Assembly: GCA_965243375.1 (NCBI GenBank)
Contig: CBDEUT010000009.1
Location: forward strand, 896,401-960,400
Direction: 5' to 3'
From: Alphaproteobacteria bacterium
GTDB taxonomy: Bacteria > Pseudomonadota > Alphaproteobacteria > UBA828
DNA: 64,000 bases
Program-made: the position numbers and the translations under genes
Notes under the pieces: generated by a model
What the model saw: only the letters and a program-made list of their open reading frames with translations
The model's database searches: none
Told to the model about the DNA's origin: nothing
In this document: piece after piece, positions 1 through 44,311 of the stretch
Numbering within the stretch: position 1 is the first letter of the stretch
Layout of the letters: each line of letters starts with the position of its first letter

Positions 1-718
1 TTACCCACGCCGGTGGGAGAGGAGTTAGCCGGTGGGATCGCGGCCTGGCCGGATGACTACCGCGAGTTGAAAGGCTGGAACGGAGGGGACGGCGCTCCCG
101 CAGGATGCCATGGAGGAAGCCGACGACGAGAGCTGCGAAGGACCTGCTGGACGGTCGGGCGCTGGAGACCATTCCCATCATGGAGTATGTCTGGGAGAGG
201 TCCAACAGGGTCCGGGCAAATGAGCAACTGCTACGCGGGCGTGGGTGAGCGGACGGACGGCATGACGGGAAAATACTGGCGGCGCGTCCGGTGCGCTCTG
301 GACACCGCGCCTTCGAGGCCGGACGATCCACGTTATCGACCGAAGGTGTCAGACGGCGCCTGGATGTGGAAACCGGCCGGTTGCTATTCGATGACGGACG
401 TACGATGCCCCGGCGACCGACCTCGGTAAAATCGCAACGGTACCGCCGAGTTGAGGGCAGGTCCGCCGCCGGCCGGGATACCGGATCGCATATGAGGCAA
501 GAAGGTCGTGAAGAACTGGCTGGAGGTCATCTGGGCGGAAGCACGCGTAGGAAGCGAAGACCTGGCCCTGGCAGGGTTCTCGGTCGTCGGAGGAAACCCA
601 ACGTCAAAGACTTACGGCTTGGCACCGGTAGGCCGTTCGGCAACTGACCTCGCCCGCACAATTGAAACTCGTCCGGCAATGCTTGTAAGTGCAACGATGC
701 AACTCTTGGGAGGGACTG

Positions 719-922
719 ATGAAAGTCAGCATCAAAGATTTCGGCGTCGATATGGAAGTGAAGAACAGAGGGATTGAGTTTGAGATGCACTACAATGCTG
801 GTACTTTCAAGGGCAATTGTTATGTCACAAAGAGTGGCCTGATCTGGTGCGAAGGTAAAACCCAAAAGAAAAACGGCATTAGAGTTTCATGGGACGAATT
901 CATCGATTGGATGAATAGCTGA
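719..922 (+). CDS. small hypothetical protein (67 aa; MKVSIKDFGVDMEVKNRG...WDEFIDWMNS) in an AT-richer segment upstream of the TerB gene
   Basis: ORF in a locally lower-GC stretch (about 650-1250); balanced amino-acid composition; internal ATG at 719 chosen over the longer ORF start at 689; no recognisable domain. Confidence 0.35.
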   Translation: MKVSIKDFGVDMEVKNRGIEFEMHYNAGTFKGNCYVTKSGLIWCEGKTQKKNGIRVSWDEFIDWMNS

Positions 923-1245
923 ACACACTCACTCGTATTCTCCGGGATTGAATACAGCAGAATATGCCGTGTGGCCCCCCTTGATTCGGATTCCATCGCT
1001 ACAAGCGCGGTGTTCGCCGTGCGGATGTGCGATTCAATTCGCCACCACGATCTTGTGGATTTGTACAGAGCCGCGGGGTTGACGGCTGGCCTGCTACCGG
1101 TCTGGATGCTACATCGAGTATCAGGCAAGGAGGTCGTGGACACGGTGTAAATTGAACTTGGCAACAAAGCTCTTCCACGAACAGGTGACTTCCTCCGCGA
1201 ACTCGAGATTACTCCCTTACCCTCGGACTATCCGGCACGACAGAA

Positions 1246-3798
1246 ATGAACGAAGAATCCAATACGACGACTATCATCGTCGTCCTCGTAGTGCTCGGAT
1301 TGTTGGTCATCGGCACTATATTCCTCACACGATTCATCGTGCGTCGCATTTCGCGTGCGTTTTCGCGTCAGCCATCTCAGCAGCGCGCAGGCCAAAGAGA
1401 GACGAAGGAGAAAAAGGGGTCTCCCAAGGATGCTCCCGGCTCCGCTTTCAAGGAGCCCACGCTCGGACCGAAAACCTCAGCTCGTGAGCATACTGCCCCC
1501 AAGACCCAACGTCCGGAGGCGCCAGTCGCCCGCACAGCTCCTCCAAAGTCCCAGACCCCAGAATCGCCGCCGGTCGTCGGCCTGTCCTCTGGCGAGTCCC
1601 ACCCCCAGGACGCGTCGCCTCCTTCCAAGGAGCCCACGTCAAGTACAACGCGCCGAACGAGGACTAAACGGCGCGTCGGATCAGGATGGGTTCCCAAGGA
1701 CGGCAGCGCCTATGTCGGCGGCCGGGAGATTGGCGGCATGGTTTACATTGGTCGAGGGCCGCGTACCGGTAGCTTCAACGAACCGGACAACGCCTTTATC
1801 GATCCGAGCAAGAACGTCGCCACGCGCGGCGGCGACTATGAGGGCCAGGGCATGGACTTCTGGCCCAACTATTCGACCATCGATGCTCGGTCACGAGCGA
1901 CTTATCTTGACTGGCTGTCCAGCGGCCGCTCTGACACTCGCTACGACGTCGGATTTGTGTTTCTTTACTTTTATGGGCTCGAGCGACGAGTCTTTGTCGA
2001 CAGGACGGAACCGCAGGAACGTGCCGGCATCATTGCCGAAGTTCGCAGACTGCTTGAGGTGTACGGCGATGACCACTCGATACGTCGTTACCTCGGCGCC
2101 TTCCTTGATACGACGAGCCTCATGGACTCGAGCGACGATCCCCAACCCGTTTTCGAGCACGATGGATACGAGATGCCGGCGAATGTGTTGCTCGCACTCG
2201 GTCGAATGGCGGCACGCGCCGAGCCACTGACGTCGGATTGGATTCTGTCCTGGTTCCTATGCCATCCCGAGACAAGGTTGAGAACACCAGCCAAGCGCGC
2301 CTTTGCCGAGTTCAAAGCTTACTTTCGTCACATGTTCGATAAAGAGTACACGGATGGGCTGAAGATTCGCACGCCAAAGCGGCGTTTGAAACTCCAGTAT
2401 CACGCCGCATCGGGAAATTTTGCGACAGATCTGAAGGAGTACCTGGGCGATATACCCGATGTTTCGAGTCTCTCGGCGCCACTCCGTATTGCGGAAAGGA
2501 TAGCCGACACGAGTGCTGATGACCTGGACAAGTACAGTCGTTACCTCGGGCGCAATCCCGATGGGCAAGGCACCATTGAGGCCCACGCCCTCTTGCCCGA
2601 AGCCCTGTGGCTGTTGTTCCCATGTCCCGAGAAGGAGGAGCTTCAGACCTGGACGACGGAACAGATCGAGTCCGGCGGGCTCGTGCCGGTCGAAGACGTC
2701 GTCGAGCGACTGGAAGGGGCTCGGCCTGACAAGATCGGGAAGCGCCAGCTGATCGGGGTAGCCGATGCGCTTGCGAGACTCGGCGTGGGCATGGCGCCCG
2801 ATCCACGTTTCGCTCTCAGGAAGCCGCAATTCGGCGAACCCGTGGTTCTGTTCCATCTGCCGAGAGACACACGCATGATCGAGAGCCCGGGCGAAGCGTA
2901 TCGAAGCGCGATCCTCAACCTCGCGGTCGCGACGCTTGTAGCCCACGCGGATGGCCACATCGATCATGCGGAGCGGGAGCATATGGTTGGTCAGATCGAT
3001 GCCAATCGATCGGTAACCGATGCCGAGCGGGCGCGGCTGCACGCGAATCTCTCCTGGATGATCGCTGTCCCGCCCGACATCGGCATGTTGCGGACCCGGC
3101 TTCGCAACACGCCCGAAGAGCTGCGAAGCGCGCTGGGTCAATTGGCGGTCATCGCAGCGGGGGCAGATGGCGCGATCGACCCGGAGGAAATTCGCGTCAT
3201 CGAGCGACTCTATGCGGTGATGGGCTTGGAGCGCGAGCGTGTTTACAGCGATTTGCACGGGCTCACCTCTGCGCCGGAGCCGGTGACTGTGCGCCCTGCA
3301 GATCAAGGTACGCGCGAGTTTGCGATCCCTTCGCCACCACCAGAGGCGCCCGCAGATGCCGTGACCCTGGATGCGGCCCGCGTATCAGCTGTGATGGCCG
3401 ACACCGCGCGTGTCAGCCAGGTGCTCGGCGACATTTTCGCGGACGGCGATGACGAAGATGAGGAAAGTGTCGACGACAGCGTTACCGAAGCAAGCGATGA
3501 ATTCAGTGGACTCGACGCGTCACACAGGGCTGTCGTGTCGGTGCTGATCACGCGCCGCCAATGGACAGAGGACGAGGTCGCGGTGCTGACCGACGAGAAT
3601 CAACTGATGGCCGCGGGCGCACTCGAGACCATCAATGAGTGGTCCTTCGGCAAGTACGATGACTCCCTAATCGAAGAATACAATGGCTATGAGATAAACG
3701 TAAGCGCCGCGCCGTCACCCTCGTTGTTGTCTGAGATTTTCGTGGTCATCTGGACCCCGTCAACGACGGAGGTGACAGATGACAGACACATTGCATGA
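1246..3798 (+). CDS. membrane-anchored TerB-N / TerB / TerB-C domain protein (Shango SngA-like); C-terminus altered by IS66 insertion
   Basis: N-terminal TM helix (IIVVLVVLGLLVIGTIFLTRFIV) followed by a Pro/Lys/Ser-rich low-complexity linker; two ADG-x-ID-x-E TerB-type motifs (AHADGHIDHAEREHM, AAGADGAIDPEEIRVIERLY); acidic C-terminal module (DDEDEESVDD...TINEWSFGKYDDSLIEEYNGYEIN) typical of TerB-C; the last 35 codons and the stop lie inside the IS66 left end. Confidence 0.8.
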   Translation: MNEESNTTTIIVVLVVLGLLVIGTIFLTRFIVRRISRAFSRQPSQQRAGQRETKEKKGSPKDAPGSAFKEPTLGPKTSAREHTAPKTQRPEAPVARTAPPKSQTPESPPVVGLSSGESHPQDASPPSKEPTSSTTRRTRTKRRVGSGWVPKDGSAYVGGREIGGMVYIGRGPRTGSFNEPDNAFIDPSKNVATRGGDYEGQGMDFWPNYSTIDARSRATYLDWLSSGRSDTRYDVGFVFLYFYGLERRVFVDRTEPQERAGIIAEVRRLLEVYGDDHSIRRYLGAFLDTTSLMDSSDDPQPVFEHDGYEMPANVLLALGRMAARAEPLTSDWILSWFLCHPETRLRTPAKRAFAEFKAYFRHMFDKEYTDGLKIRTPKRRLKLQYHAASGNFATDLKEYLGDIPDVSSLSAPLRIAERIADTSADDLDKYSRYLGRNPDGQGTIEAHALLPEALWLLFPCPEKEELQTWTTEQIESGGLVPVEDVVERLEGARPDKIGKRQLIGVADALARLGVGMAPDPRFALRKPQFGEPVVLFHLPRDTRMIESPGEAYRSAILNLAVATLVAHADGHIDHAEREHMVGQIDANRSVTDAERARLHANLSWMIAVPPDIGMLRTRLRNTPEELRSALGQLAVIAAGADGAIDPEEIRVIERLYAVMGLERERVYSDLHGLTSAPEPVTVRPADQGTREFAIPSPPPEAPADAVTLDAARVSAVMADTARVSQVLGDIFADGDDEDEESVDDSVTEASDEFSGLDASHRAVVSVLITRRQWTEDEVAVLTDENQLMAAGALETINEWSFGKYDDSLIEEYNGYEINVSAAPSPSLLSEIFVVIWTPSTTEVTDDRHIA

Positions 3799-4204
3799 AC
3801 GAGTGACGGAGGACGCCACCGACGCTTCGGTCGCGGTCGCGACGAGCGCGCACGGCGCACGGGTCTGGCCGGAAGCGGTGAAGGCGCGGATCGTGGAGGA
3901 GACGTTCGAGGAGGGAGCGACGGTGGCGGGGGTTGCCCGGCGTCACGGCCTCTCACGGACGCAGTTGAGCGGCTGGCGGCGCATGGCTCGGGACGGGCTT
4001 CTCGGCCCGGTCGCCGGCGCGGGCGACGATCCGTTCGGCCTGGTCCCGGTGACGGTGTCGGTCGCTGCTGAGCGGAACGGCGCGGCCTCGGTGCCCGCGG
4101 ATGGTATCGCGATCGAGATCGCCGACATCCGGGTGGTGGTGCCGCCGGACTTCGACGCGGGGCACCTGTCGCGCATCCTGGTCTGCGTTCGGGCCGCGCC
4201 ATGA
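3779..4204 (+). CDS. tnpA: IS66 accessory protein TnpA (orf1)
   Basis: 141 aa with the ...ARIVEETFEEGATVAGVARRHGLSRTQLSGWRR HTH typical of IS66 TnpA; stop overlaps the tnpB start. Confidence 0.85.
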   Translation: MTDTLHERVTEDATDASVAVATSAHGARVWPEAVKARIVEETFEEGATVAGVARRHGLSRTQLSGWRRMARDGLLGPVAGAGDDPFGLVPVTVSVAAERNGAASVPADGIAIEIADIRVVVPPDFDAGHLSRILVCVRAAP

Positions 4205-4554
4205 TCCTGACCGGGGAGAAGATCCGGGTCTGGCTGGCGACCCGCCCCGTCGACTTCCGAAAGGGACATGACGGGCTGTCGGCGGTGGTGCAGACGGTGC
4301 TGGGTCACGACCCCTATAGCGGCGCGGTCTTCGCCTTCCGCTCCAAGCGAGGCGACAGAATGAAGATCCTGGTCTGGGACCGCACCGGGCTGGTCATGGT
4401 CTACAAGCGCCTGGAGGGCGGCGGCTTCCAGTGGCCGCGCCCCTCGGACGGCGTGATCGGACTGTCGCCGGCGCAGTTCTCGGCGTTGTTCGAAGGTCTC
4501 GACTGGAAGGCGGTCCGGGCCGTGCGACGGCCTCGGCCGCGCCAGGCGGCCTGA
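4201..4554 (+). CDS. tnpB: IS66 TnpB (orf2)
   Basis: 117 aa, MILTGEKIRVWLATRPVDFRKGHDGLSAVV...VFAFRSKRGDRMKILVWDRTGL, canonical IS66 Orf2. Confidence 0.9.
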   Translation: MILTGEKIRVWLATRPVDFRKGHDGLSAVVQTVLGHDPYSGAVFAFRSKRGDRMKILVWDRTGLVMVYKRLEGGGFQWPRPSDGVIGLSPAQFSALFEGLDWKAVRAVRRPRPRQAA

Positions 4555-4700
4555 CCGCGCAGCTTGCCGTTTCACCGGGGAACGGTGTCCATCCCACCGT
4601 CTCCCCGGTGTCGCCAAGACGAGCTATCCGGCCCCGTTTACGGCGGGGCCGGAAGCATGTTCACCTTGCGTTACCTCATTGATTCTGCTAGAGGAATCCC

Positions 4701-6329
4701 ATGATAACCAGCATGGGAAGCGCCGTTCCCGTGAGTGATCTGCAACGCCGTCTGGCGGCCGTCGAAGCCCAACTTGCGAAGGAGCGTGCCGAGCGCAAGG
4801 CCGCCGAGGACGCGCTGGCTGTGTCCGAGCGGGCGCGCGAACGCCTGGAGCGGATCATCGCCTCGCTGAACCATGCCGTGTGGGGCGCGCGCTCGGAGAA
4901 GCGCCATGCCGATCAGGACCGGCTGCCGCTGTTCGAGGACATCGCGGTCGCCGAGGGGATGCTGGCGGAAGCCCAGGAGAAGGCCGACGCGGCGACCGGC
5001 AGGCAGCGGCGCAAGCCACAGCCGACCAATCGCAACCTCGGCCATCTGCCCAAGCACCTCGAACGCTTCGAGAAGGTGATCGAGCCGGAGAGCGCGGAGT
5101 GCCCTTGCGGCTGCGGCGAGATGGTGAAGGTCGGCGAGGACCGCACCGAGCGGCTCGACGTCGTGCCGGCGAAGTTGAGGGTGCTGGTGACGATCCGGCC
5201 GAAATACATCTGCCGCGCCTGCGAAGGCAAACAGAGCACCCAGGCGCCGGCGCCGGAATATCTGGTGCCGCGCGGCCTGCCGACCGAGGCGCTGGTGGCG
5301 CACACGCTGGTCGCCAAGTTCGCCGATCACCAACCGTTCTACCGTCAGAGCGAGGCATACCGTCGCGAGGGGATCGACCTCGACCGCACCATGCTGGGGA
5401 ACTGGGCGGGGCGCGGGATGCAGGTGCTGGCCCCGGTGATCGACCGGATGATCGAGCACCTCAAGGCGTCGGACGGTCTGTTCATGGACGAGACCACGGT
5501 GCCGGTGATGGCGCCGGGGACCGGCAAGACGCGCCTCGACTATCTGTGGGCGATCGCCCGCGATCAGCGCGGCTATGGCGGGGCCGACCCGCCGATCGTG
5601 GTGTTCCACCACTCGCGCCATCGAAGTGCGAAGGTCGCTCTTGAGTTGATGCGGGGCTACACCGGCGGCGGCCCGCTGCACGTGGACGGCTACAGGGTGT
5701 ACGACGCGCTCGGCGATCCGAAGCAGACGGTCAGCCCATGGGTGCTTGCCTACTGCTGGGTCCACTGGCGGAGACGCTTCGTCGACTTCCAGCGCGGCAC
5801 GGCCTCGCCCGTGTGCGAGGAAATCCTCGAACGGATCGCGGCGCTGTACCGGATCGAGGCCATGGTGCGCGGCCACCCGCCGGAGCTTCGGCTGAAGGCG
5901 CGGCAGGAGTTGTCGGCACCGATCGTCGAGGCCATGCGGCCCTGGCTTGAGGCCCAGCTCGACCGTCTGTCCAGCGCGTCCGAACTCGCCAAGCACATCC
6001 GATATGCCCTCAAGCGCTGGGACGGCCTGTGCCGGTTCCTCCATGACGGGCGTATCGAGATGGACACCAACCCCATCGAGAACCTCATCCGCCCGGTGAA
6101 GCTCACAAAGAAAAACGCGCTCTTCGCCGGCAGCGACGACGGCGCCAGGACATGGGCGCGGTGTGCCAGCCTGATCGGCACCTGCAAGCTCAACGGCATC
6201 AATCCGCAGGTCTACCTGACCGACACCCTGCGCCGGATCGTCGACATGCACCCCGTGTCACGCATCGACGAGCTCATGCCCTGGAACTTCGCTCCGACAA
6301 TCCCGGGCGTCACCCGTCAACAAGGGTGA
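4701..6329 (+). CDS. tnpC: IS66-family transposase TnpC
   Basis: 542 aa; N-terminal leucine zipper/coiled coil, CPCGCG...CRAC zinc finger, DETT DDE core, C-terminal conserved region of IS66 TnpC. Confidence 0.9.
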   Translation: MITSMGSAVPVSDLQRRLAAVEAQLAKERAERKAAEDALAVSERARERLERIIASLNHAVWGARSEKRHADQDRLPLFEDIAVAEGMLAEAQEKADAATGRQRRKPQPTNRNLGHLPKHLERFEKVIEPESAECPCGCGEMVKVGEDRTERLDVVPAKLRVLVTIRPKYICRACEGKQSTQAPAPEYLVPRGLPTEALVAHTLVAKFADHQPFYRQSEAYRREGIDLDRTMLGNWAGRGMQVLAPVIDRMIEHLKASDGLFMDETTVPVMAPGTGKTRLDYLWAIARDQRGYGGADPPIVVFHHSRHRSAKVALELMRGYTGGGPLHVDGYRVYDALGDPKQTVSPWVLAYCWVHWRRRFVDFQRGTASPVCEEILERIAALYRIEAMVRGHPPELRLKARQELSAPIVEAMRPWLEAQLDRLSSASELAKHIRYALKRWDGLCRFLHDGRIEMDTNPIENLIRPVKLTKKNALFAGSDDGARTWARCASLIGTCKLNGINPQVYLTDTLRRIVDMHPVSRIDELMPWNFAPTIPGVTRQQG

Positions 6330-6394
6330 CGGCGCGGCGCTTACAGATAAACGGCGACGTCGCCCAACAGTTGATGCGTTGACGGGAGAGGAAC

Positions 6395-7717
6395 ATGAAG
6401 CGTCCCAAGATCAAGCGGCGCGAGCGCGACACGATCATCCAGGCCTTGCGTGCAGGCGTCGTCCCCAAGCTGGGCCTGCGGCACATCCAAGTCGGGCGGG
6501 CGCGAGAGACCACCGAAATGGTCCGAGATGTCGAACGGATCGGCGAAGGGGGCGCCTCCATCCGCTTCGTGATTGGAGAGTATGGATCGGGCAAGACGTT
6601 CTTCCTCAATCTCGTTCGGCTCATTGCCTTGGAGAAGGGACTGGTCGTGCTTTCGGCGGACTTGGCGCCCGACCGACGCATCCATGCCACGGGCGGGCAA
6701 GCCCGTTCGCTGTATGCGGAGCTCACGCGAAATGCCTCGACCCGCACGAAACCGGAGGGCGGCGCGCTCGCCAGCGTGGTGGAGAGGTTCGTCACCCAGG
6801 CGGTCCGCGAGGCGGACGCCTCCGAGCGAACAGCGGATGCCGTGATCCGAGACAAGCTGGACCATCTCGAGGAGCTGACGGGCGGCTACGACTTCGCCAC
6901 GGTCATCGCCAGGTATTGGGAAGGGCACGAGACGGGTGACGACGAGCTGAAGTCGAATGCGCTGCGCTGGCTCAGGGCCGAGTTCGCGACCAGGACGGAT
7001 GCGCGCAAGGCGCTCGGCGTTCGCACGATCATCGATGACTCCAGCGTCTACGATCACCTGAAGCTCCTGTCCGCATTCGTGCGCGAGGCGGGCTACGGCG
7101 GATTGCTGGTGGAGCTCGATGAACTCGTAAACCTCTACAAGCTCACCAACAGCCAGGCACGTAACGCCAACTATGAACAGATTCTCCGCATCCTGAACGA
7201 CGTTCTCCAAGGCAGTGCCGCGCATCTCGGCTTCATGCTGGGCGGCACCCCGGAGTTTCTCATGGACACGCGGCGGGGCCTCTACAGCTACGAAGCGCTC
7301 CAGTCGCGGCTCGCGGAGAACACCTTCGCACGAGACGGACTGGTCGATCTGTCCGGGCCGGTCATGCGTCTTTCCGGCCTGACGAAGGAAGATTTGTTCG
7401 TGCTGTTGGCCAACGTCAGGCGCGTGTTTCTGGGAGACGAGACGGGTGCCGCGCCGGACGATGCCCTGAAGGCGTTCATGGCGCACTGCTCGCAGCGGAT
7501 CGGCGACGTCTATTTCCGGACGCCGAGAACCACGGTCACCGCCTTCGTGAACATGCTCTCGGTCATCGAGCAGAACCCGGGGACGGCATGGCAGGACCTC
7601 GTCGACGATGTTGAGATCGTGGCGGATGGCGGCGATGACTTGAGCGACATCATCGACAACGAGGCAGCGAAGAGTGGGCAGGAGGCTGACGATGACCTCA
7701 CCAGCTTCCGCCTCTGA
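6395..7717 (+). CDS. P-loop ATPase (Shango SngB-like)
   Basis: 440 aa; Walker A GEYGSGKT near residue 60, Walker B-like LLVELDEL; RBS GGGAGAGG 5 nt upstream; 12 nt downstream of the reconstructed pre-insertion stop of the TerB gene. Confidence 0.8.
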   Translation: MKRPKIKRRERDTIIQALRAGVVPKLGLRHIQVGRARETTEMVRDVERIGEGGASIRFVIGEYGSGKTFFLNLVRLIALEKGLVVLSADLAPDRRIHATGGQARSLYAELTRNASTRTKPEGGALASVVERFVTQAVREADASERTADAVIRDKLDHLEELTGGYDFATVIARYWEGHETGDDELKSNALRWLRAEFATRTDARKALGVRTIIDDSSVYDHLKLLSAFVREAGYGGLLVELDELVNLYKLTNSQARNANYEQILRILNDVLQGSAAHLGFMLGGTPEFLMDTRRGLYSYEALQSRLAENTFARDGLVDLSGPVMRLSGLTKEDLFVLLANVRRVFLGDETGAAPDDALKAFMAHCSQRIGDVYFRTPRTTVTAFVNMLSVIEQNPGTAWQDLVDDVEIVADGGDDLSDIIDNEAAKSGQEADDDLTSFRL

Positions 7718-9944
7718 TCAGCAATCCCGAGCCTTCGATCTTCTGGCGGAGCCGATCCGACGCTGGATCTGGCAAATGAAGTGGACTGCGCTTCGAGACA
7801 TTCAGGAGCGCGCGATCCCTTACCTGATCGACGGCGATGACGACCTCATCATTGCGGCCGCGACCGCCGGGGGAAAGACGGAGGCGGCGTTCCTGCCGCT
7901 GATTTCGAGGGCCCTCACGACCGGAAGTGGCGAGGGCTTCGACCTGGTCTATGTCGGGCCCCTTCGGGCGCTCATCAACGATCAGTTCTGGCGGCTAGAA
8001 GAGCTGTGTGCGACGCTGGAGATACCGGTCCACCCCTGGCACGGCGACATCTCGCAGGCCGTGAAGGCGCGCGCCAGAAAGAACCCGCGCGGCGTCCTGC
8101 TCATCACGCCCGAATCGCTCGAAGCGATGTTCCTCCTGCGCAGCGCGGAGATACCCCGCCTCTTCGCGGACACCCAAGCCATCGTGATCGACGAGCTTCA
8201 TGCTTTGCTGGATTCCGAGCGGGGCGTTCATCTGCGCTCCCTGCTGACCCGGCTCGAACTCGCGGTCGGCCGTCGCATTCGGCGCGTCGGGTTGTCGGCG
8301 ACTCTGGGAGACATGGCGCTGGCCAATGCCTATCTGCGCCCTGAGGCGCCGGAGAAGGTGGGGCAACTGGTCAGCTCCGACGAGCAGGAGCTGCGTGTTC
8401 AGTTGCGCGCCTACATCGCCGGCCGACGCACAGAGCACCCTAGCCCAGAAGAAGCCGAGTCGAACGGTGCCGATATGCAGGATTCATCTGCGGCACGGGC
8501 CGTTGGCGAGCATATCTTCGATAAGCTTCGGGGAAGCAACAATCTTGTCTTTGCAGGGTCCCGGGGCAACGTCGAGCTCTATGCCGATCTCTTGCGCCGA
8601 ATGTGCGAGGAGAGACGTCTTCCGAACGAGTTCTTCCCTCATCACGCCAGCCTGTCTAGGGAGCATCGCGGCTTCGTGGAGAAGCGCCTCAAGGACGGCA
8701 ATCTGCCGGTCACTTCAATTTGCACGTCCACCCTGGAACTCGGGATCGACATCGGCAACGTGGTATGCGTCGGACAAATTGGCGCGCCATGGTCGGTCGC
8801 GGGACTCAAGCAAAGACTGGGGCGGTCAGGGCGGCGGGACGGCCAACCTTCCGTGCTCCGCATGTACGCCATTGAACCGGAGACCGACGCCGACTCGCAT
8901 CCCATCGACACGTTTCACCTAGGCCTGGTGCGCTCGATTGCCATGGTCGAACTGTTGGTCGAGAGTTGGTGCGAGCCGCCGAGACGGGAGGCGCTCCATC
9001 TCTCGACGTTGACACACCAGATCCTATCTGTGATCGCGGAACGGGGCGGGGCATCGGCGAAGCGGCTCTTTTCGACTCTTTGTGACCGCGGTCCGTTTCG
9101 GACAGTCGATTCAGCGCTATTTGATCGGCTCTTACGCCAGCTTGGCGACCCCGACATCGCACTAATCGAACAGGCGTCGGACGGTACGCTTCTGCTTGGC
9201 CGCGAAGGCGAGCGTGTCGTCGAGCACTACAGTTTCTACGCGGTCTTTCATACACCGCAGGAATACCGCGTCGTCCACGATACGAAGACCCTCGGAACGA
9301 TCCCCGTCGATATGCCGCTGACCCCGGACATGACAATCATATTCGTCGGTCGACGGTGGCGCGTTCTCGAGGTGCACGACAAGGAAAGAGTTATCGAAGT
9401 GACGCCCGACTATGCCGGCAAGCCGCCGCGCTTCGGAGGTGATGCAGGCGACGTACATGAGGTCGTCGTACGCCGCATGCGCGACGTGCTGCTCGCCGAT
9501 ATCGTGCCGCCCTATCTCGACAATACGGCTGCAGAAGTCCTTCGCTTTGCCAGAGCCGCCTATCGGCGGTCCGGCCTCGATGACGTACCCATTCGACCGC
9601 TCGGCGAAGATCGACATCTTCTCGCCCTATGGACTGGAACAGTCGGCACAGTTTCTTTGGCGCTTGTGCTGACGTGTCTTGGCTATCGTGTCGGCACTTA
9701 CGATGGCATTCTGGATGTGACATCACCGCGTTCGTGCACGAGAGGCCTCTCTTCACAGCTTGGGGACATCGCAACTGGAGAACTCGACTTGCCCGACCTC
9801 ATACGAGGCCGAGCAGGCGCACTGATCAACGAGCAGTTCCACCACTATCTCGGAGACGATCTATTGCTTTCAGATGCACTATCGAGGCGGTTGGACCTGA
9901 ATGCAGTACCAGGGATCGCCCAAAGATTGTGCTCACGGTTGTGA
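7692..9944 (+). CDS. DEAD/DEAH-box SF2 helicase (Shango SngC-like)
   Basis: Motif I AATAGGKTEAAF, Ia VGPLRALINDQ, II VIDELHAL, III SAT, VI QRLGRSGRR; start chosen at the ATG at 7692 with a perfect AGGAGG RBS 7 nt upstream (the ORF track starts at 7674); overlaps the upstream ATPase gene by 26 nt. Confidence 0.8.
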   Translation: MTSPASASDQQSRAFDLLAEPIRRWIWQMKWTALRDIQERAIPYLIDGDDDLIIAAATAGGKTEAAFLPLISRALTTGSGEGFDLVYVGPLRALINDQFWRLEELCATLEIPVHPWHGDISQAVKARARKNPRGVLLITPESLEAMFLLRSAEIPRLFADTQAIVIDELHALLDSERGVHLRSLLTRLELAVGRRIRRVGLSATLGDMALANAYLRPEAPEKVGQLVSSDEQELRVQLRAYIAGRRTEHPSPEEAESNGADMQDSSAARAVGEHIFDKLRGSNNLVFAGSRGNVELYADLLRRMCEERRLPNEFFPHHASLSREHRGFVEKRLKDGNLPVTSICTSTLELGIDIGNVVCVGQIGAPWSVAGLKQRLGRSGRRDGQPSVLRMYAIEPETDADSHPIDTFHLGLVRSIAMVELLVESWCEPPRREALHLSTLTHQILSVIAERGGASAKRLFSTLCDRGPFRTVDSALFDRLLRQLGDPDIALIEQASDGTLLLGREGERVVEHYSFYAVFHTPQEYRVVHDTKTLGTIPVDMPLTPDMTIIFVGRRWRVLEVHDKERVIEVTPDYAGKPPRFGGDAGDVHEVVVRRMRDVLLADIVPPYLDNTAAEVLRFARAAYRRSGLDDVPIRPLGEDRHLLALWTGTVGTVSLALVLTCLGYRVGTYDGILDVTSPRSCTRGLSSQLGDIATGELDLPDLIRGRAGALINEQFHHYLGDDLLLSDALSRRLDLNAVPGIAQRLCSRL

Positions 9945-9976
9945 TAAGTGAGCCACTTGACGATATCTGCGGTCAC

Positions 9977-10010
9977 GCACTGGTTCCAGTGCCACATTTC
10001 CTTTTTTTTA
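9977..10010 (+). terminator. candidate intrinsic terminator after the helicase gene
   Basis: Hairpin GCACTGG-TTC-CCAGTGC at 9977-9992, followed after 8 nt by a T8 run (10001-10009); spacing is atypically long. Confidence 0.35.
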
Positions 10011-10249
10011 TACTCATGGAGATGAGATTGACACAGAGACCTACAGGCTGCGAAACGACGAGGCTGTCAAAGCACTTCCTGCTTATCCGTGATTCTCATC
10101 CAGCGATGAGGGTTTTGTAGCGCATGGGGCGGTGCACGCCGCGTTTCGGCTGCTTGCGCGTCAGATCGGCGAACCAGCGATCGATCTGATTGACACTCGG
10201 TTCCGTCGAAAAGCGCAGCTATCGCCCCGCCCCAGTAATCGTATGGAAG

Positions 10250-10640
10250 CACGGAGACAAGACGGTTACCGGCGGCGCGGCGCATTTCCTTCAAGCTCGT
10301 CCCGGCGCTTCTCTGTTTGCGCAGCAAGCCGGGGCCCGGCAACCCCTGGGTGTTTCCCGGCCGCGTGCTCGGTACCCGTCTGCGCACACTGAACGCGTCG
10401 TGGCAGGTCGTTCGCAAGGAGGCCGGGCTCGAAGACGTTCGCCTGCATGACTTGCGCCACTCCTTCGCCTCGCGGGCGCTCGCCCTCGGGGAGAGTCTGC
10501 CGATGATCGGGAAACTGCTCGGTCACACGAAGGTGCAGACGACCGCGCGCTACGCACACCTTGGGAGGCACTCAGTGAAGGTCGCTGCCGTTCGGATACC
10601 CGCTTACCGAGTTGCAGCACTTACAGACTCAGCCTTTGCA
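10250..10640 (+). pseudogene. 3' fragment of a tyrosine integrase gene (remnant)
   Basis: Encodes only the C-terminal catalytic segment ...PWVFPG...LEDVRLHDLRHSFASRALALGESLPMIGKLLGHTKVQTTARYAHL, about 70% identical to the intact integrase at 12764-13945, then diverges; no N-terminal domain. Confidence 0.6.
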
Positions 10641-10874
10641 CAACGACAGCAACTGGGCAGAGTCACGCGGGCGCTCCGCCGCGGGGAGTCCCCATTCTGC
10701 ACCGAGCTGCGGAATGTTTCCTGACCGGCCACATCCATAGACTACCGGACACTCCCAACAGGAACACCACCGCAGCAATCCATCCGTTGTCACGCTTCCA
10801 CTTGGACCTAGTACCATTGACTCGATGGAATTACTATACGCGTAGAAGCCATTCAGATCAGGTACGGTTCCGCT

Positions 10875-12353
10875 ATGCCCCAGCAAGTCTATCGGATTCG
10901 CAGCGCCAAACATCTTATTGGCGAATATCATGAATTCCAAAAACAGGAAATCTACTTCGCCAAACCGGACGAACTCAACGATCCTATGGAAGGGCTTCGG
11001 AACATAGTTTGGAGAGGCGATGCGATCATGTGGGAAAACTTCTTTCGACACTACATATCGTGCCTGAATCACACTGTAGTCTTGGTCAAAGTGCTTGGAA
11101 ATAACACTATCGTACAAGCAGAACAAATCCCAATTTGCGGACTGGCAGACGAACATGAAACCCCAATGACGGCTGCAATTCTTGAGGAACTATGTTCCAG
11201 TGTTTTCGATAAATGCAAGCTCCACGCGTTGATACAAGATTTGGCAAATACGAATCACGCGGTCAGACGTGATGAACTGCTTGTCTACCTCAAACACATT
11301 CACTACATCACACTCGGAGAAATACAAAACATCCATATACGTCACAGCATGGCTTCAGGAGAAGCTCGACCCACTCCTCTTCAAGACCCGTTGGAGCTGC
11401 TTCAAGACCCGTTTGAGCTGCCCGAAAACATTCCCACATTGATTCAACGGCTCTATGAAGAGCAACCGGAAATCGCTCGGCCAGCATTGGCTGCTCTATT
11501 TTCTGTTTCGAATCTATTGTTCGATAACATGAATCTGATGCACAAGTACAGCAGTTCTCGACAGAACGATGGAAGCGAAACCCGCGCAAAGCAAAACCGC
11601 GAGTTCATTGTGCTCGATTTTCCGAGAAAATACCTTACTCGACTACCACGTATTCTATATCCTGATTGGTATGTCTCCTGCTTTCTTGAGGACTGTCGAA
11701 ATTCTTCCATATGGGGGCACTATGGAGATAATCATAAGGGGGCCTGTTTGATTTTCGATGCAAATGAAGACTCCGGACAGCTTGGACTGGAATTGAGGCG
11801 CATTACTGGTTTTTCTGGTCATCGTGACAAAAGCTTCGGCGAGATGACAACGAGATCGACATGGAATTACTCTTTGATGACGCTTTATAGTGTAGAATAT
11901 GAGGAAGAGTTGAGGGAGCTAGATTTTTTTCGTTCTATAGGTGTACTTCCCACAGGTCGACTTCTGTCCAAATGGTACACCGACCACGCGGGTAACCGCA
12001 GTATCTGCAGCGACCACATCGGGTCCGGTAACGAGGACTCGTGGCGTGAAGCGTATTGGGAGAAGTTCCATCAAGACATAGTCATAAAATCGCACGACTG
12101 GTCCTATGAGAAGGAAATGCGAATGATCCTAAGCAGTTCGATCTCGGACTTTACGGCAAAGACGTCGCGCAAGCTGACCTATCGATTTTCAAGCTTGAGA
12201 GGAGTTATTTTCGGGATCAGTATGACAGACAATGATAAGATGAAAATTATTGATATCGTGTTTGAAAAATGTCGCAACGAGAACAGGAATGATTTGAATT
12301 TTTTCAGGCATATTACAACCACGAGACGAAAGCTATCGAGAGGCATAGGTTGA
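10875..12353 (+). CDS. DUF2971-like protein (candidate standalone defence/Abi-type gene) in an AT-rich islet
   Basis: 492 aa; N-terminal motif VYRIRSAKHLIGEYHEFQKQEIYFAKPDELNDPMEG resembles the DUF2971 signature (LYKYRS...FS.P..FNDPFE) recalled from memory; gene and flanks (about 10640-12360) visibly much lower GC than surroundings. Confidence 0.65.
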   Translation: MPQQVYRIRSAKHLIGEYHEFQKQEIYFAKPDELNDPMEGLRNIVWRGDAIMWENFFRHYISCLNHTVVLVKVLGNNTIVQAEQIPICGLADEHETPMTAAILEELCSSVFDKCKLHALIQDLANTNHAVRRDELLVYLKHIHYITLGEIQNIHIRHSMASGEARPTPLQDPLELLQDPFELPENIPTLIQRLYEEQPEIARPALAALFSVSNLLFDNMNLMHKYSSSRQNDGSETRAKQNREFIVLDFPRKYLTRLPRILYPDWYVSCFLEDCRNSSIWGHYGDNHKGACLIFDANEDSGQLGLELRRITGFSGHRDKSFGEMTTRSTWNYSLMTLYSVEYEEELRELDFFRSIGVLPTGRLLSKWYTDHAGNRSICSDHIGSGNEDSWREAYWEKFHQDIVIKSHDWSYEKEMRMILSSSISDFTAKTSRKLTYRFSSLRGVIFGISMTDNDKMKIIDIVFEKCRNENRNDLNFFRHITTTRRKLSRGIG

Positions 12354-12763
12354 ACATTAAGATACCACAGGAATGACGCGGAAGTATGTTTTCGTCGAGA
12401 TCAGCTAAGGGGCTGTCAGGTGATTAGCGTCTCACTACATGTCATGCACTTTGCGAACCGCACCGCACCACACATGCCGATGCTGCACAATGCGTCGCAT
12501 GATCCAGATTGAACGCCGAACCTGTTCTCCGCTGCGCACGCTTCGATTAGGGGAGGTCTCCGGTCGGCTTGCGGTCAGCCAGGACGCCCGCTCACTCGGT
12601 CGGCCATGCGCTGGCAAACGATTTCCCGAATCCTTCCTTTGCAGAACGCGACAAGGCGGGAGAGTCTTTGCTGAATCTCATGCGGGTCGGCATTAGGATC
12701 GGGCTGCATCCCCGCCACGGCCGAACCCGGAGAGCTGTTTGTGCAGGTCGTCGACCAGGGTCC

Positions 12764-13945
12764 CTACAGGATGTCGCTGGCAATGCTGTCTGCGATCCGC
12801 TCCGCCGCCTCGTGAACCGAGTCCTGCGCAAGATGGGCGTAGCGCGCCGTCGTCTCGATATCGTGGTGTCCAAGCAGCTTGCCGATCACCGGAAGGGTCT
12901 CGCCGAGTGCGAGCGCCCGGGAGGCAAAGCTGTGTCGGAGGTCGTGCAGCCGCACGTCCTCCAGATCGGCACCGGCCCGGACAATGCGCCAGGCACGGTC
13001 GAGGCCGCCGCTGAGGCGTCCGTCGCGGTCGCCGCCCGGAAACACCCAGGGGCCGTCGTTCCGACGCGGCAGCGTCTCCAGAAGCCCCACCGCCGCCGAC
13101 GGAAGCTGGACCGTGCGGGGACCAGACTTGGCGTCGGCGAGGCGGAGCTCGCCGGCTTCGGGGTCGACGTCCGTCCAGCGCAACGTGAGGATCTCGCTCT
13201 TGCGGCAGCCGGTCAGCATCAGCAGGTGGATCGCCGTCACGGCAAGCGGCGAAACGGCGCCGCTGTCGAGGGCCTCGTGCAGCGCCTGTCCGAGGCGGTC
13301 GAACTCGGCATCGGTCAGGAAGCGCTCGCGGGAGCGCTCGGGATACTTCTCCACCGAGCGGCAGGGATTGAAGCCCTCGGGCGCCAGGCCCCAGCCCTCG
13401 GCCAGACGGTACATGTGCGACAGGACCTTGACCGCCCGGTTCGCCGTGACCGGGCGGTCCGACAGTTCGCGGTGCAGCTCGACGACGTGGCTTCGTTCCA
13501 CCGCCTCCAGGGGCAGCCTGCCGAGGGCCGGCAGGATGTGGCGGCGGAGCACACCACTGACGCTCGTCTGCGTCCTCGGTTTCAGCCTCGCCTCGACATG
13601 CTCCTCCAGGTAGCGCTCGGCAAGATCGGCCACGGTGGGCCCGCCGTTGAGCCTGGCGGCGAGCGGCAGGGGCACCGGGTCCTCGCACGCCCTGATGCGC
13701 GCGATGATGAGCGCCGCCCGCTGGCGGGCCTCCTCGGCATTGAGCACGCCGTGGCGGCCGACCGTCACCCGCTTCGGCAGCCTGTTGCCCGTCCGCTCCC
13801 TGGCCTGGGCGACGTAGACCTTGCCGCCGGACGGATAGACCCGGATCCCGAAGCCGGTCAGGTCCCGGTCCCAGAACACGGTGTCGCGGTCGACTTCCAG
13901 CGCTGCCACGGTGCGGTTGGAGAGGGTCTTCTTCTGCACTGCCAT
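12764..13945 (-). CDS. int: tyrosine recombinase / phage-type integrase (copy 1)
   Basis: 393 aa from the ATG with GAGGAGG RBS (MAVQKKTLSNRTVAALEV...); N-terminal arm-binding (DUF4102-like) region, C-terminal HDLRHSFAS...TTARYAHL with catalytic Tyr. Confidence 0.9.
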   Translation of the reverse strand: MAVQKKTLSNRTVAALEVDRDTVFWDRDLTGFGIRVYPSGGKVYVAQARERTGNRLPKRVTVGRHGVLNAEEARQRAALIIARIRACEDPVPLPLAARLNGGPTVADLAERYLEEHVEARLKPRTQTSVSGVLRRHILPALGRLPLEAVERSHVVELHRELSDRPVTANRAVKVLSHMYRLAEGWGLAPEGFNPCRSVEKYPERSRERFLTDAEFDRLGQALHEALDSGAVSPLAVTAIHLLMLTGCRKSEILTLRWTDVDPEAGELRLADAKSGPRTVQLPSAAVGLLETLPRRNDGPWVFPGGDRDGRLSGGLDRAWRIVRAGADLEDVRLHDLRHSFASRALALGETLPVIGKLLGHHDIETTARYAHLAQDSVHEAAERIADSIASDIL

Positions 13946-13956
13946 GTTGCGCCTCC

Positions 13957-15141
13957 TCACGCCGCCTCGGCACGGCCGCGCAGGACGTGGGCGGCGATGC
14001 TGTCGCCGGTCCGCGCGGCGGCGGCCTTCTCCGCGTCGCGCACCAGGTGGGCGTACTTGGCGGTGGTGCCAACCGTGACATGACCCAGCAGCCTACCGAT
14101 CACCGGCAGGCCCTCGCCAAGGGCCAGCGCCCGCGAGGCGTAGCTATGGCGCAGGTCGTGGACGCGCACATCGTGGAGTCCGGTCTCTCTCCTGATCCTC
14201 CGCCAGTACGAGGAAAGACAGGCCAGTCGGGAACCGGGCTTCGTGCCCCGCAGTACCCAGGGAACTCCCTCGGCCCGCTTGATGCCGTCCAGCACTTTCA
14301 GCACCGGCCCGGTCAGCGGCACCATGCGCGGCCCGGTCTTCGAATCGCGCAAGCGCAAGACGCGCGCCGTGCGGTCGACGTCGTCCCATTTCAGGGTGAG
14401 GATCTCGTCCGTGCGGCAGCCGGTGAGCATCAGCAGGCGGATCGCGGCGATCGCCGAGGGCACCATCGAGCCCTCGGATTCGAACATCTTCAGCGCCGTC
14501 CCCAGCCGCCGGAACTCCTCCGGAGTCAGGAAGCGCTCGCGGGACTTCCCTCGGTAATGGCGGACATGCCGGCTCGGCTTGCGGCCGGGCGGTACCATCC
14601 CCCAGCTCTCGCCCAACGACAAGATCTTCGACAGCACCCACATCGCCTGGTTGGCCGCCGCCGGCGTCGCCCGCAGCTTGTGGTGGAGCGCCGTGAGGTC
14701 TTCGGACCCGACATCCTCGAGCGCCTTCGTCCCCAGGGCCGGGAGGATATGGTTCCGGATCGACACCCGGTAGTTCCTGGCTGTGCTCGGCTTGCAGCGC
14801 GTCTCGACGTAGTTCTTGAGCACGAGTTCGGACAGGTCGGCGACGGTGGGCGGTGGCGGCGCTTTCGACGGCTTGGGGTCCTCGCCCCGCTTGATGCGGT
14901 CGATGACGACGGCGGCCTCGCGCCGGCGGTCCTCGACGGTCTTGGTGCCGACCCGTCCGAGCGTCACCCGCTTCAGGCCCGCCGGTCCCCTGGACTGAAC
15001 GATGTAGAGCTTGCGTCCGGTGGCATGCACCCGCACGCCGAAGCCGGCAAGGTCGCGGTCCCAGAAGATCGTGTCCTTGCCGCCGGCCTTGAGCCCGTCC
15101 ACAATCCGCTTGGTCAGTCTGAGGGTGCTGCGCTTCGGCAT
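13957..15141 (-). CDS. int: tyrosine recombinase / phage-type integrase (copy 2, tandem paralogue)
   Basis: 394 aa from MPKRSTLRLTKRIVDG (RBS GGGGAGAGAAACC); same domain layout, VHDLRHSYASRAL...TAKYAHL; stop 12 nt upstream of the copy-1 start. Confidence 0.9.
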   Translation of the reverse strand: MPKRSTLRLTKRIVDGLKAGGKDTIFWDRDLAGFGVRVHATGRKLYIVQSRGPAGLKRVTLGRVGTKTVEDRRREAAVVIDRIKRGEDPKPSKAPPPPTVADLSELVLKNYVETRCKPSTARNYRVSIRNHILPALGTKALEDVGSEDLTALHHKLRATPAAANQAMWVLSKILSLGESWGMVPPGRKPSRHVRHYRGKSRERFLTPEEFRRLGTALKMFESEGSMVPSAIAAIRLLMLTGCRTDEILTLKWDDVDRTARVLRLRDSKTGPRMVPLTGPVLKVLDGIKRAEGVPWVLRGTKPGSRLACLSSYWRRIRRETGLHDVRVHDLRHSYASRALALGEGLPVIGRLLGHVTVGTTAKYAHLVRDAEKAAAARTGDSIAAHVLRGRAEAA

Positions 15142-44244: not shown

Positions 44245-44311
44245 GGCCGGGAATGAATCAGATTCGCAGCCTCACGGCAATTGCCAATCGCGCAGGGTGA
44301 TTCGCCCGGCC

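What the first reader, a model, noticed from the sequence alone, without database searches (positions are those of the whole stretch)
3692..6352. IS66 insertion into the last codons of the TerB gene, separating it from the ATPase-helicase genes
An exact 8-bp direct repeat AGATAAAC flanks a 2,645-bp element with 27-bp IRs and tnpA, tnpB and tnpC.

Removing the element restores a TerB ORF ending ...YEINGDVAQQLMR*, with its stop 12 nt before the ATPase start codon. With the IS in place, the TerB protein instead gains a 35-residue IS-encoded tail, and the two downstream genes sit 2.6 kb from the operon promoter.

This is a plausible recent inactivation or rewiring of a defence system by an IS. An outward IS promoter could keep genes 2-3 expressed.
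Basis: seen in the sequence. Interest (0 to 1): 0.65.

Follow-up and report, generated by a model that had tools for sequence, protein, structure and literature searches.

The report
IS66 insertion splitting a Shango operon
A 2.6-kb IS66-family insertion sequence recently landed in the last codons of the first gene of a three-gene Shango anti-phage operon, replacing that protein's terminal helix and separating it from its two partner genes; near-identical relatives still carry the empty site, and this is an ordinary, well-known kind of event.

Summary
Window 3700-6344 is a complete 2,645-bp IS66-family element. It has 27-nt inverted repeats (26/27 matching), the genes tnpA, tnpB and tnpC, and an exact 8-bp target-site duplication, AGATAAAC. 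It sits 9 codons before the stop of sngA, the TerB_N/TerB/TerB_C gene of a Shango defence operon (sngA, sngB, sngC).

Two metagenome contigs carry the unoccupied site with a single AGATAAAC and the predicted 12-nt sngA-sngB spacer. One is about 99% identical to the window, the other about 90%. In all 80 related Shango loci examined, sngA and sngB abut, and none has an IS between them. A 100% identical IS copy exists elsewhere, so the insertion is recent.

One correction: the IS-encoded tail is 32 residues, not 35. It replaces a conserved 9-residue C-terminal helix.

sngB and sngC remain intact and point the same way as the IS genes. No outward promoter was detected, so any expression would come from read-through. 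Loss or weakening of defence is likely but unproven. The IS-bearing allele also carries derived substitutions at otherwise invariant residues, and a related strain has a different IS in sngA.

This is a new example of a known phenomenon and of modest interest.

The parts
1246..3699 (+). sngA, native part (codons 1-818): N-terminal transmembrane-like segment, then TerB_N, TerB and most of TerB_C
   Evidence: Pfam: TerB_N 2e-58, TerB 3.5e-9, and TerB_C 1.5e-21 reaching only profile position 140 of 148. PADLOC SngA 3e-85. The start at 1246 is shared by full-length homologues P0001-P0008 and P0122.
3692..3699 (.). Left copy of the 8-bp target-site duplication AGATAAAC
   Evidence: The empty-site contigs L083 and L002 have a single copy.
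3700..6344 (+). Complete IS66-family insertion sequence, 2,645 bp, genes in the same orientation as the Shango operon
   Evidence: Absent from L083 and L002. A 100% identical copy is in L001, and copies at 96% and 88% identity are in L084-L091; 8 of the 9 copies checked have perfect 8-bp duplications of different sequence.
3700..3726 (+). Left inverted repeat, GTAAGCGCCGCGCCGTCACCCTCGTTG
   Evidence: I1: 27 nt, 96% complementary.
3700..3798 (+). IS-encoded extension of the sngA reading frame: 32 codons (VSAAPSPSLLSEIFVVIWTPSTTEVTDDRHIA) plus a stop. It overlaps the tnpA start by 20 nt.
   Evidence: The same fused protein is in NCBI as P0003, annotated from an internal Met.
3779..4204 (+). tnpA (141 aa)
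   Evidence: Pfam HTH_Tnp_1 5.7e-13.
4201..4554 (+). tnpB, IS66 Orf2 (117 aa); its ATG overlaps the tnpA stop (ATGA)
   Evidence: Pfam TnpB_IS66 1.3e-38. The exact protein is listed in 45 blocks of the contig index.
4573..4653 (+). Two G+C-rich hairpins in the 146-nt tnpB-tnpC spacer, with no U tract. They could attenuate read-through.
   Evidence: Fold -72.6 kcal/mol, z -6.6. Conserved in five related IS copies with a few compensatory changes. Not scored as an intrinsic terminator. No Rfam match.
4701..6329 (+). tnpC, DDE transposase (542 aa)
   Evidence: Pfam DDE_Tnp_IS66 2.8e-90, IS66_C 5e-19, zf-IS66 1.3e-14, LZ_Tnp_IS66 3e-9. The exact protein is on 5 contigs.
6318..6344 (-). Right inverted repeat
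6345..6352 (.). Right copy of the target-site duplication AGATAAAC
6353..6382 (+). Orphaned last 9 codons of sngA (GDVAQQLMR) plus the stop
   Evidence: The same tail is conserved in homologues down to about 50% identity. It is predicted to form the terminal helix of TerB_C.
6383..6394 (+). Native 12-nt sngA-sngB spacer with the ribosome-binding site GGGAGAGG, intact
   Evidence: The spacer is identical in L083 and L002.
6395..7717 (+). sngB, BrxC/BrxD-type ATPase (440 aa), intact
   Evidence: Pfam BrxC_BrxD 3.6e-151. PADLOC SngB 2.1e-174, covering the full profile.
7692..9944 (+). sngC, DEAD/DEAH helicase (750 aa from the ATG used in L083; the longest ORF starts at GTG 7674), intact
   Evidence: Pfam DEAD 3.5e-27 and Helicase_C 1.4e-13. 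PADLOC SngC 8.6e-262. The start matches L083.

Best explanation
A complete and evidently active IS66-family element (tnpA-tnpB-tnpC, 2,645 bp) transposed recently into the 3' end of sngA. sngA is the TerB-domain gene of a Shango anti-phage operon, which sits on a lower-G+C region flanked on one side by integrase genes in an uncultured bacterium. The insertion made the usual 8-bp duplication.

Shown:
- The insertion keeps SngA through its invariant Asn818.
- It replaces the conserved 9-residue C-terminal helix of the TerB-C domain with 32 unrelated, partly hydrophobic residues.
- It moves sngB and sngC 2,653 bp further from sngA.
- It breaks the tight sngA-sngB juxtaposition found in every relative examined.

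Inferred:
- sngB and sngC can now be transcribed only by read-through from the sngA or IS promoters. That read-through must cross three extra genes and a structured 146-nt spacer.
- Shango output is therefore most likely reduced or lost. This would relieve any cost of the system and make the cell more permissive to phages or mobile DNA.
For: Structure of the insertion:
- Repeats, duplication, length and genes.
- Shango identity.
- Empty sites: L083 (~99% identical; its SngA, P0122, is 827 aa with 1 difference from the restored protein) and L002 (~90% identical). Both have one AGATAAAC and the 12-nt spacer.
- In 80 of 80 related loci the sngA stop lies between -29 and +12 nt of the sngB start, and no IS intervenes.

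Recency and activity:
- The copy in L001 is 100% identical over 2,645 bp and is nested inside another copy of itself.
- 8 of 9 copies or close variants have perfect 8-bp duplications of different sequence.

Damage to SngA:
- The TerB_C match reaches profile position 147/148 (82.9 bits) in the intact allele, but 140/148 (77.6 bits) in the window protein.
- The tail consensus xDVAxxLxx is conserved.
- AlphaFold2 of the 92% identical P0009 places residues 655-662, the replaced segment, in a terminal helix after a beta hairpin, with block pLDDT 80-87.

Expression:
- No + strand promoter-like site was found in the IS.
- The tnpB-tnpC spacer has strong, conserved hairpins.

Hints that constraint is relaxed:
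- Window-derived SngA P369T (Pro in 76/76 relatives) and SngC K715Q (Lys in 79/79), plus K29M, R100W and SngB E2K.
- A related strain (L095) has sngA split by a different IS.
Against: - No expression or phage data exist.
- Only the last 9 residues are lost, and all invariant residues up to Asn818 are retained.
- sngB and sngC are full-length, with complete profile coverage.
- The IS genes point the same way as the operon, gaps between genes are short (146 and 65 nt), and no canonical terminator was detected. Read-through expression of sngB/sngC is therefore plausible.
- The sngB ribosome-binding site is intact.
- The nonsynonymous:synonymous count on the window branch (5:4) does not differ significantly from the family baseline of 0.35 (p about 0.17).
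- The AlphaFold2 model is only moderately confident overall (mean pLDDT 74, pTM 0.54).
Confidence: 0.65

Rival explanations
1. The insertion is tolerated and nearly neutral. SngA works without its last helix, sngB and sngC are expressed by read-through across the same-orientation IS, and Shango still defends.
For: - The insertion lies 9 codons from the stop, and all invariant SngA residues are kept.
- sngB and sngC are intact.
- The IS genes share the operon's orientation, and no terminator-like site was found on the + strand of the IS.
- The ribosome-binding site and spacer of sngB are untouched.
Against: - The replaced tail is conserved across homologues down to about 50% identity and is predicted to be helical.
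- The abutting or overlapping sngA-sngB arrangement is universal in 80 relatives.
- The IS has conserved strong hairpins in an untranslated spacer.
- The allele carries derived changes at two otherwise invariant residues.
Confidence: 0.28
2. The Shango locus was already non-functional or dispensable before the IS arrived. On this reading the IS is a symptom of relaxed selection, not its cause.
For: - The window lineage has derived replacements at positions invariant in 76-79 relatives: SngA P369T and SngC K715Q.
- There is a second structural difference from the ~99% identical allele: a 628-bp indel 107 nt upstream of sngA.
- An independent IS disruption of sngA exists in a related strain.
Against: - There are no frameshifts or stop codons in any of the three genes.
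- There are only 9 derived changes in total, and the nonsynonymous:synonymous ratio is not significantly raised.
- The order of events cannot be resolved from two alleles.
Confidence: 0.2
3. Adaptive rewiring. The IS supplies a new promoter or regulatory input for sngB/sngC, or the SngA-IS fusion gains a new property, and the allele is maintained by selection.
For: - The same orientation and the 20-nt overlap of the fused sngA stop with the tnpA start create a continuous six-gene array.
- IS hits in sngA recur in this community.
Against: - No outward or internal + strand promoter-like site was found.
- The allele is seen in only one genome.
- The 32-aa tail is simply the read-through of the left repeat and the tnpA leader.
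Confidence: 0.05
4. Assembly artefact: an IS copy was wrongly collapsed or placed into the Shango locus.
For: The IS is multi-copy in this community, and repeats are a classic cause of misassembly.
Against: - A misjoin would not create an exact 8-bp duplication of the target at precisely the repeat tips, in a site shown to be single-copy in two independent contigs.
- The same fused protein is annotated in the NCBI record on a 1.84-Mb contig.
Confidence: 0.01

Closest known systems
IS66 family of insertion sequences (IS66, IS679 and relatives; Han et al. 2001 J Bacteriol 183:4296 and Gourbeyre et al. 2010 Res Microbiol 161:136, cited from my own knowledge; both appear in the reference list of PMC6778807)
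   Same: - Size of about 2.6 kb.
- Three same-orientation ORFs: tnpA (helix-turn-helix), tnpB (IS66 Orf2, with an ATGA overlap on tnpA) and tnpC (DDE transposase with zinc-finger and leucine-zipper domains).
- Terminal inverted repeats beginning GTAAGCG.
- 8-bp target duplication.
   Different: Nothing of substance. This particular element has no near-identical match in the plasmid collection. It was seen only in uncultured-bacterium contigs, with named relatives in Rhodospirillaceae MAGs and Hoeflea sp.. I could not check it against ISfinder names.
Shango anti-phage system, SngA/SngB/SngC (Millman et al., bioRxiv 10.1101/2022.05.11.491447; Johnson et al. 2023, PMC10250203)
   Same: A TerB-domain protein, an ATPase and a DEAD/DEAH helicase, in that order, with very strong matches to all three PADLOC Shango profiles. 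The neighbourhood carries integrase genes and another candidate defence gene.
   Different: The operon is interrupted by an IS, and SngA lacks its native C-terminal helix. The host is a high-G+C uncultured bacterium rather than E. coli or Pseudomonas. The mechanism of Shango is itself unknown in the papers I could search.
IS-mediated inactivation of defence systems, for example IS insertions into cas genes (Sheng et al. 2023, PMC10359306)
   Same: A natural IS transposition into a defence gene, with the intact allele retained in close relatives. It recurs in the same gene family through different ISs (window and L095).
   Different: Here the target is Shango rather than CRISPR-Cas. The hit is at the extreme 3' end and in the operon's orientation, so it is not an obvious null allele. 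No phenotype has been measured.
BREX accessory modules BrxD (ATPase) and BrxHI (helicase)
   Same: SngB also matches BrxD (7.8e-46) and SngC also matches BrxHI (3.9e-114). The ATPase-helicase pair is a shared module.
   Different: The Shango profiles score far higher. No other BREX genes (such as pglX or pglZ) showed up among the ORFs flanking the operon, though this was not searched exhaustively. The partner here is a TerB protein.

Membership tests
IS66 family insertion sequence | DDE transposase TnpC of the IS66 type | tested here: met
   PF03050 2.8e-90, plus PF13817, PF13005 and PF13007.
IS66 family insertion sequence | Accessory genes tnpA (helix-turn-helix) and tnpB (IS66 Orf2) upstream of tnpC in the same orientation, with tnpA and tnpB overlapping | tested here: met
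   PF01527 5.7e-13 and PF05717 1.3e-38. tnpA ends at 4204 and tnpB starts at 4201.
IS66 family insertion sequence | Terminal inverted repeats of about 20-30 bp beginning GTAAGCG | tested here: met
   27-nt repeats, 26/27 matching, starting GTAAGCG. The same tips occur in 8 other copies.
IS66 family insertion sequence | 8-bp target-site duplication | tested here: met
   AGATAAAC on both sides. There is a single copy in the empty sites L083 and L002. 8 of 9 copies have perfect 8-bp duplications.
IS66 family insertion sequence | Demonstrated transposition activity | not testable with these tools
   Indirect evidence only: identical copies at different sites, including one nested in another copy.
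Shango defence system | SngA: a protein with TerB_N, TerB and TerB_C domains | tested here: met
   Pfam; PADLOC SngA 3e-85. TerB_C is truncated at profile position 140/148 by the IS.
Shango defence system | SngB: BrxC/BrxD-type (DUF2791) ATPase | tested here: met
   PF10923 3.6e-151; PADLOC SngB 2.1e-174.
Shango defence system | SngC: DEAD/DEAH-box helicase | tested here: met
   PF00270 and PF00271; PADLOC SngC 8.6e-262.
Shango defence system | Three genes contiguous in one operon, with sngA abutting or overlapping sngB | tested here: not met
   In the window, 2,596 nt and three IS genes separate the fused sngA stop (3798) from sngB (6395). The feature is met after in-silico excision and in 80 of 80 relatives. 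The locus is therefore an interrupted Shango.
Shango defence system | Protection against phage infection | not testable with these tools
   Shown only for the E. coli and P. aeruginosa systems (PMC10250203; 10.1101/2022.05.11.491447).

The most novel reading that the evidence does not exclude
The insertion may be a switch or rewiring rather than a simple knockout. On this reading sngB and sngC are now co-transcribed with the transposase genes, so ATPase-helicase expression and transposase expression are coupled. Alternatively, SngA carrying the hydrophobic IS-encoded tail behaves differently. The recurrent IS hits in sngA of co-occurring strains (window and L095) would then reflect selection to toggle Shango in this community. 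If so, the natural allelic series would give a first handle on what the TerB-C terminal helix and sngA-sngB coupling do in a system whose mechanism is unknown. The series is: intact (L083, L002), helix-swapped (window) and split mid-gene (L095).
Probability: 0.08. Interest if true: 0.5.

Novelty: new member of a known kind. Interest (0 to 1): 0.25.

Why it matters
This is a cleanly documented natural case of an insertion sequence disrupting a Shango defence operon, with filled and empty alleles only about 1% apart. It adds one data point to the view that defence systems are frequently switched off by ISs.

It also provides a ready-made allelic series for testing two things in Shango, whose mechanism is still unknown:
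- whether the conserved C-terminal helix of the TerB protein is needed;
- whether the tight sngA-sngB coupling is needed.

It does not reveal a new kind of element or mechanism.

Tried and rejected
- **Exact-protein look-ups.** SngB and the fused SngA (P0003) are not on record in the contig index, so the source contig could not be fetched. The source genome is not among the GTDB species representatives; the best SngB match is 91%.
- **JGI metagenome scans.** A pattern for the site, designed to match both the filled and empty forms, gave 0 hits, and so did a pattern for the left inverted repeat.
- **Plasmid collection.** Only short, weak matches to the IS were found, so no named near-identical element.
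- **Promoter and terminator scan.** Nothing on the + strand within the IS. This gives no support for an outward promoter, but the scan covers only sigma-70 consensus sites and may not suit a 68% G+C organism.
- **Rfam.** No match in window 1-12,500.
- **Relaxed-selection test from nonsynonymous:synonymous counts.** 5:4 on the window branch against a baseline of 0.35 gives p about 0.17. I treat this as suggestive only and rely instead on where the changes fall.
- **Literature.** Han et al. 2001 (PMC95320) is not held, so the IS66 family criteria are cited from my own knowledge. No mechanistic or structural paper on Shango was found.
- **Structure.** No model coordinates were available, so contacts of the terminal helix could not be measured. 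A second prediction of the fused protein was judged uninformative and was not run.
Full report
**1. The observation**

An exact 8-bp direct repeat, AGATAAAC, lies at 3692-3699 and 6345-6352. It brackets a 2,645-bp segment (3700-6344) whose ends are 27-nt inverted repeats matching at 26 of 27 positions: GTAAGCGCCGCGCCGTCACCCT(C/T)GTTG. The 22-nt repeat core occurs only at these two places in the 64-kb window, against 0.01 expected by chance.

The segment carries three genes on the + strand:
- tnpA, 3779-4204: HTH_Tnp_1, 5.7e-13.
- tnpB, 4201-4554: IS66 Orf2, 1.3e-38. Its start overlaps the tnpA stop.
- tnpC, 4701-6329: DDE_Tnp_IS66, 2.8e-90, with the IS66 zinc-finger, leucine-zipper and C-terminal domains.

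Size, gene set, GTAAGCG termini and the 8-bp duplication are the features I know for the IS66 family (Han et al. 2001; Gourbeyre et al. 2010; cited from my own knowledge, since the first paper is not held).

**2. The host locus**

The interrupted gene and its neighbours are a Shango anti-phage system.
- ORF 1246-3798 has TerB_N, TerB and TerB_C domains and matches PADLOC SngA at 3e-85.
- ORF 6395-7717 is a BrxC/BrxD-type ATPase, SngB 2.1e-174.
- ORF 7692-9944 is a DEAD/DEAH helicase, SngC 8.6e-262.

Shango was described as a TerB / ATPase / helicase three-gene system that protects E. coli and P. aeruginosa, and its mechanism is unknown (10.1101/2022.05.11.491447; PMC10250203). I found no later mechanistic paper.

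The locus has 58-63% G+C against about 70% for most of the window. Downstream lie a DUF2971 / PDC-S31 candidate defence gene, an integrase fragment and two tandem tyrosine integrases. It therefore looks like a horizontally acquired defence-carrying region.

**3. Proof of insertion**

Removing 3700-6352 in silico gives an 827-aa SngA ending ...YEINGDVAQQLMR*. Its stop is 12 nt before the sngB ATG, and the spacer holds a GGGAGAGG ribosome-binding site. This reconstructed state exists in nature.
- Contig L083 (ENA ERZ25069412) is 99.1% identical to window 1071-3700 and 99.5% identical to 6345-10852. The two alignments overlap by exactly AGATAAAC plus one ambiguous G. Its SngA (P0122, 827 aa) differs from the reconstruction at one residue.
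- Contig L002 (ENA ERZ25069580), about 90% identical, shows the same single-copy site and the same 12-nt spacer.
- Across 78 species-representative genomes plus these two contigs, the sngA stop always lies between -29 and +12 nt of the sngB start, and none has an IS there.

Both were tested, and neither occurred.

**4. Recency and activity of the IS**

- A copy 100% identical over all 2,645 bp lies in contig L001. There it is inserted into another copy of itself with its own 8-bp duplication (GATCGACC), and that outer copy is in turn cut by a second IS66-family element.
- Copies at 96% and 88% identity in six other contigs have the same tips.
- In total, 8 of the 9 copies checked have perfect 8-bp duplications of unrelated sequence.
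- The exact TnpC protein occurs on 5 contigs.

With the perfect duplication and an empty site in a ~99% identical allele, the insertion is young.

**5. Effect on SngA**

The fused ORF keeps residues 1-818. It then reads through the left repeat for 32 codons (VSAAPSPSLLSEIFVVIWTPSTTEVTDDRHIA), not 35, and stops 20 nt inside tnpA.
- The nine lost residues are conserved in pattern (xD[VI]AxxLxx) in homologues down to about 50% identity.
- The Pfam TerB_C match reaches profile position 147/148 in the intact allele but 140/148 in the window protein.
- An AlphaFold2 model of the 92% identical homologue P0009 has the same tail. It places these residues in a terminal helix (655-662) that follows a beta hairpin, with block pLDDT 80-87. 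The whole model is only moderate (mean pLDDT 74, pTM 0.54).
- The invariant Asn just before the junction is preserved, because it is encoded in the duplicated target.

The lesion is therefore a terminal-helix swap, not a gross truncation.

**6. Effect on sngB and sngC**

Both genes are full-length with complete profile coverage, and the sngB ribosome-binding site is untouched. The IS moves them 2,653 bp further from whatever promoter drives sngA and ends the abutting arrangement.

The IS genes share the operon's orientation. The locus now reads sngA'-tnpA-tnpB-tnpC-sngB-sngC, with untranslated gaps of 146 nt and 65 nt. The consensus scan found no + strand promoter-like site and no intrinsic terminator in the IS, so the outward-promoter idea has no support, and read-through is the simplest route to expression.

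The tnpB-tnpC spacer folds into two strong hairpins (-72.6 kcal/mol, z -6.6). They are conserved among six IS copies with a few compensatory changes. They lack a U tract, and whether they attenuate transcription is unknown.

My inference is that expression of sngB and sngC is reduced and no longer matched to SngA. This step is not shown.

**7. Hints of relaxed constraint**

Between the window and L083 there are 12 codon differences in the three genes. Polarised with L002 and L003, 5 nonsynonymous and 4 synonymous changes are derived in the window lineage, against 1 and 1 in L083.

Two of the window's replacements hit residues that do not vary in any relative examined:
- SngA P369T (Pro in 76 of 76).
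- SngC K715Q (Lys in 79 of 79).

A third, SngC K29M, replaces a position that is always polar. The 5:4 count itself is not significantly different from the family baseline (p about 0.17), so this is suggestive only. It cannot say whether the decay preceded or followed the IS.

A related strain (L095; 89-93% nucleotide identity; same sample as the intact L002) has sngA split mid-gene by a different, ~2-kb DDE_Tnp_1-type IS. Only this locus showed a split SngA match in the screen. IS disruption of sngA therefore recurs among the close relatives but looks rare across species representatives.

**8. Comparison with what is known, and verdict**

The element passes every sequence-level test for IS66 membership. 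The host system passes the three gene-content tests for Shango and fails only the contiguity test, because of the IS. It is an interrupted Shango.

IS insertion into defence genes, with intact alleles in relatives, is already documented, for example for cas genes (PMC10359306). This finding is a real, well-supported and recent event, but it is a new example of a known kind. Its modest value is as a natural allelic series for a defence system whose mechanism is unknown.

My confidence is about 0.97 for the structural reading and about 0.6-0.65 that defence is impaired.

Noticed in passing
window 511-1138 (repeats at 443-510 and 1071-1138; ORF 719-922 +): A 628-bp segment (52% G+C) lies 107 nt upstream of the sngA start and is absent from the ~99% identical contig L083. 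It is flanked by an imperfect ~68-bp direct repeat with the core AGGCAAG(A/G)AGGTCGTG.

It carries a 67-aa ORF (MKVSIKDF...) that has no Pfam match but has 31 homologues of the same length at 54-96% identity. In other genomes (L092-L094) these sit in regions rich in ISs and toxin-antitoxin or defence genes, not next to Shango. Whether this is an insertion in the window or a repeat-mediated deletion in L083 is unresolved. Either way it alters the promoter-proximal region of sngA.
   Followed up: partly
window sngA codon 369 (2350-2352); sngC codons 29, 100, 715 (numbered from ATG 7692); sngB codon 2: The IS-bearing allele has derived amino-acid changes at positions otherwise invariant in relatives: SngA P369T (Pro in 76/76) and SngC K715Q (Lys in 79/79). 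It also has K29M, R100W and SngB E2K. sngC shows 4 nonsynonymous and 0 synonymous differences from L083. The pattern is consistent with relaxed selection but is not statistically significant.
   Followed up: yes
L095 8909-10956 (ENA ERZ25069580 ctg102715): In a related Shango locus (89-93% nucleotide identity), sngA is split in mid-gene, between the TerB_N part and the TerB/TerB_C part. The cause is a different ~2-kb IS encoding a 574-aa DDE_Tnp_1 transposase, with inverted repeats of about 19 bp. sngB and sngC are intact. The same sample also holds an intact locus, L002.
   Followed up: partly
window 42495-45170 (- strand): A second, different IS66-family element: 2,676 bp, 21-bp perfect inverted repeats starting GTAAGCATCC, 8-bp duplication AGTGCATC, and a 528-aa TnpC. 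It shares only short stretches of about 65-79% similarity with the first IS and is 100% identical to L001 6205-8863.
   Followed up: partly
L001 944-8863 (ENA ERZ26051807): A nest of ISs. A copy of the 2,645-bp IS is inserted (duplication GATCGACC) into another copy of itself. The outer copy is truncated at its position 2608 by the second IS66 element, which is also present in the window.
   Followed up: partly
window 4573-4653: Two strong G+C-rich hairpins in the tnpB-tnpC spacer (z -6.6). They are conserved in six copies or variants of the IS, with compensatory changes at a few pairs. There is no Rfam match and no U tract. This may be a regulatory or attenuating element of this IS66 subgroup.
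   Followed up: partly
window 10317-10724 (+), 10875-12353 (+), 12764-13960 (-), 13957-15222 (-): Downstream of Shango lie four features:
- a C-terminal fragment of a tyrosine integrase, 67% identical to the integrase at 12764-13960;
- a low-G+C (46%) DUF2971 gene matching the PADLOC candidate defence family PDC-S31;
- two tandem full-length tyrosine integrases.

No tRNA gene was found anywhere in the window.
   Followed up: partly
window 1246-1738 (sngA codons 1-164): The public protein for this gene (P0003, 686 aa) starts at Met165. It omits an N-terminal hydrophobic segment and a Pro/Ser-rich linker that are conserved in full-length homologues (P0001-P0008, P0122). The annotated start is therefore probably too far downstream.
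   Followed up: no
window vs L083: 1-510 and 9945-10852 compared with 1246-9944: The Shango coding regions are about 99.8% identical between the window and L083, while the flanking non-coding or pseudogene DNA is only 98-98.8% identical. Synonymous divergence in the genes is lower than flank divergence. This could reflect recent exchange of the Shango cassette or faster-evolving flanks.
   Followed up: no
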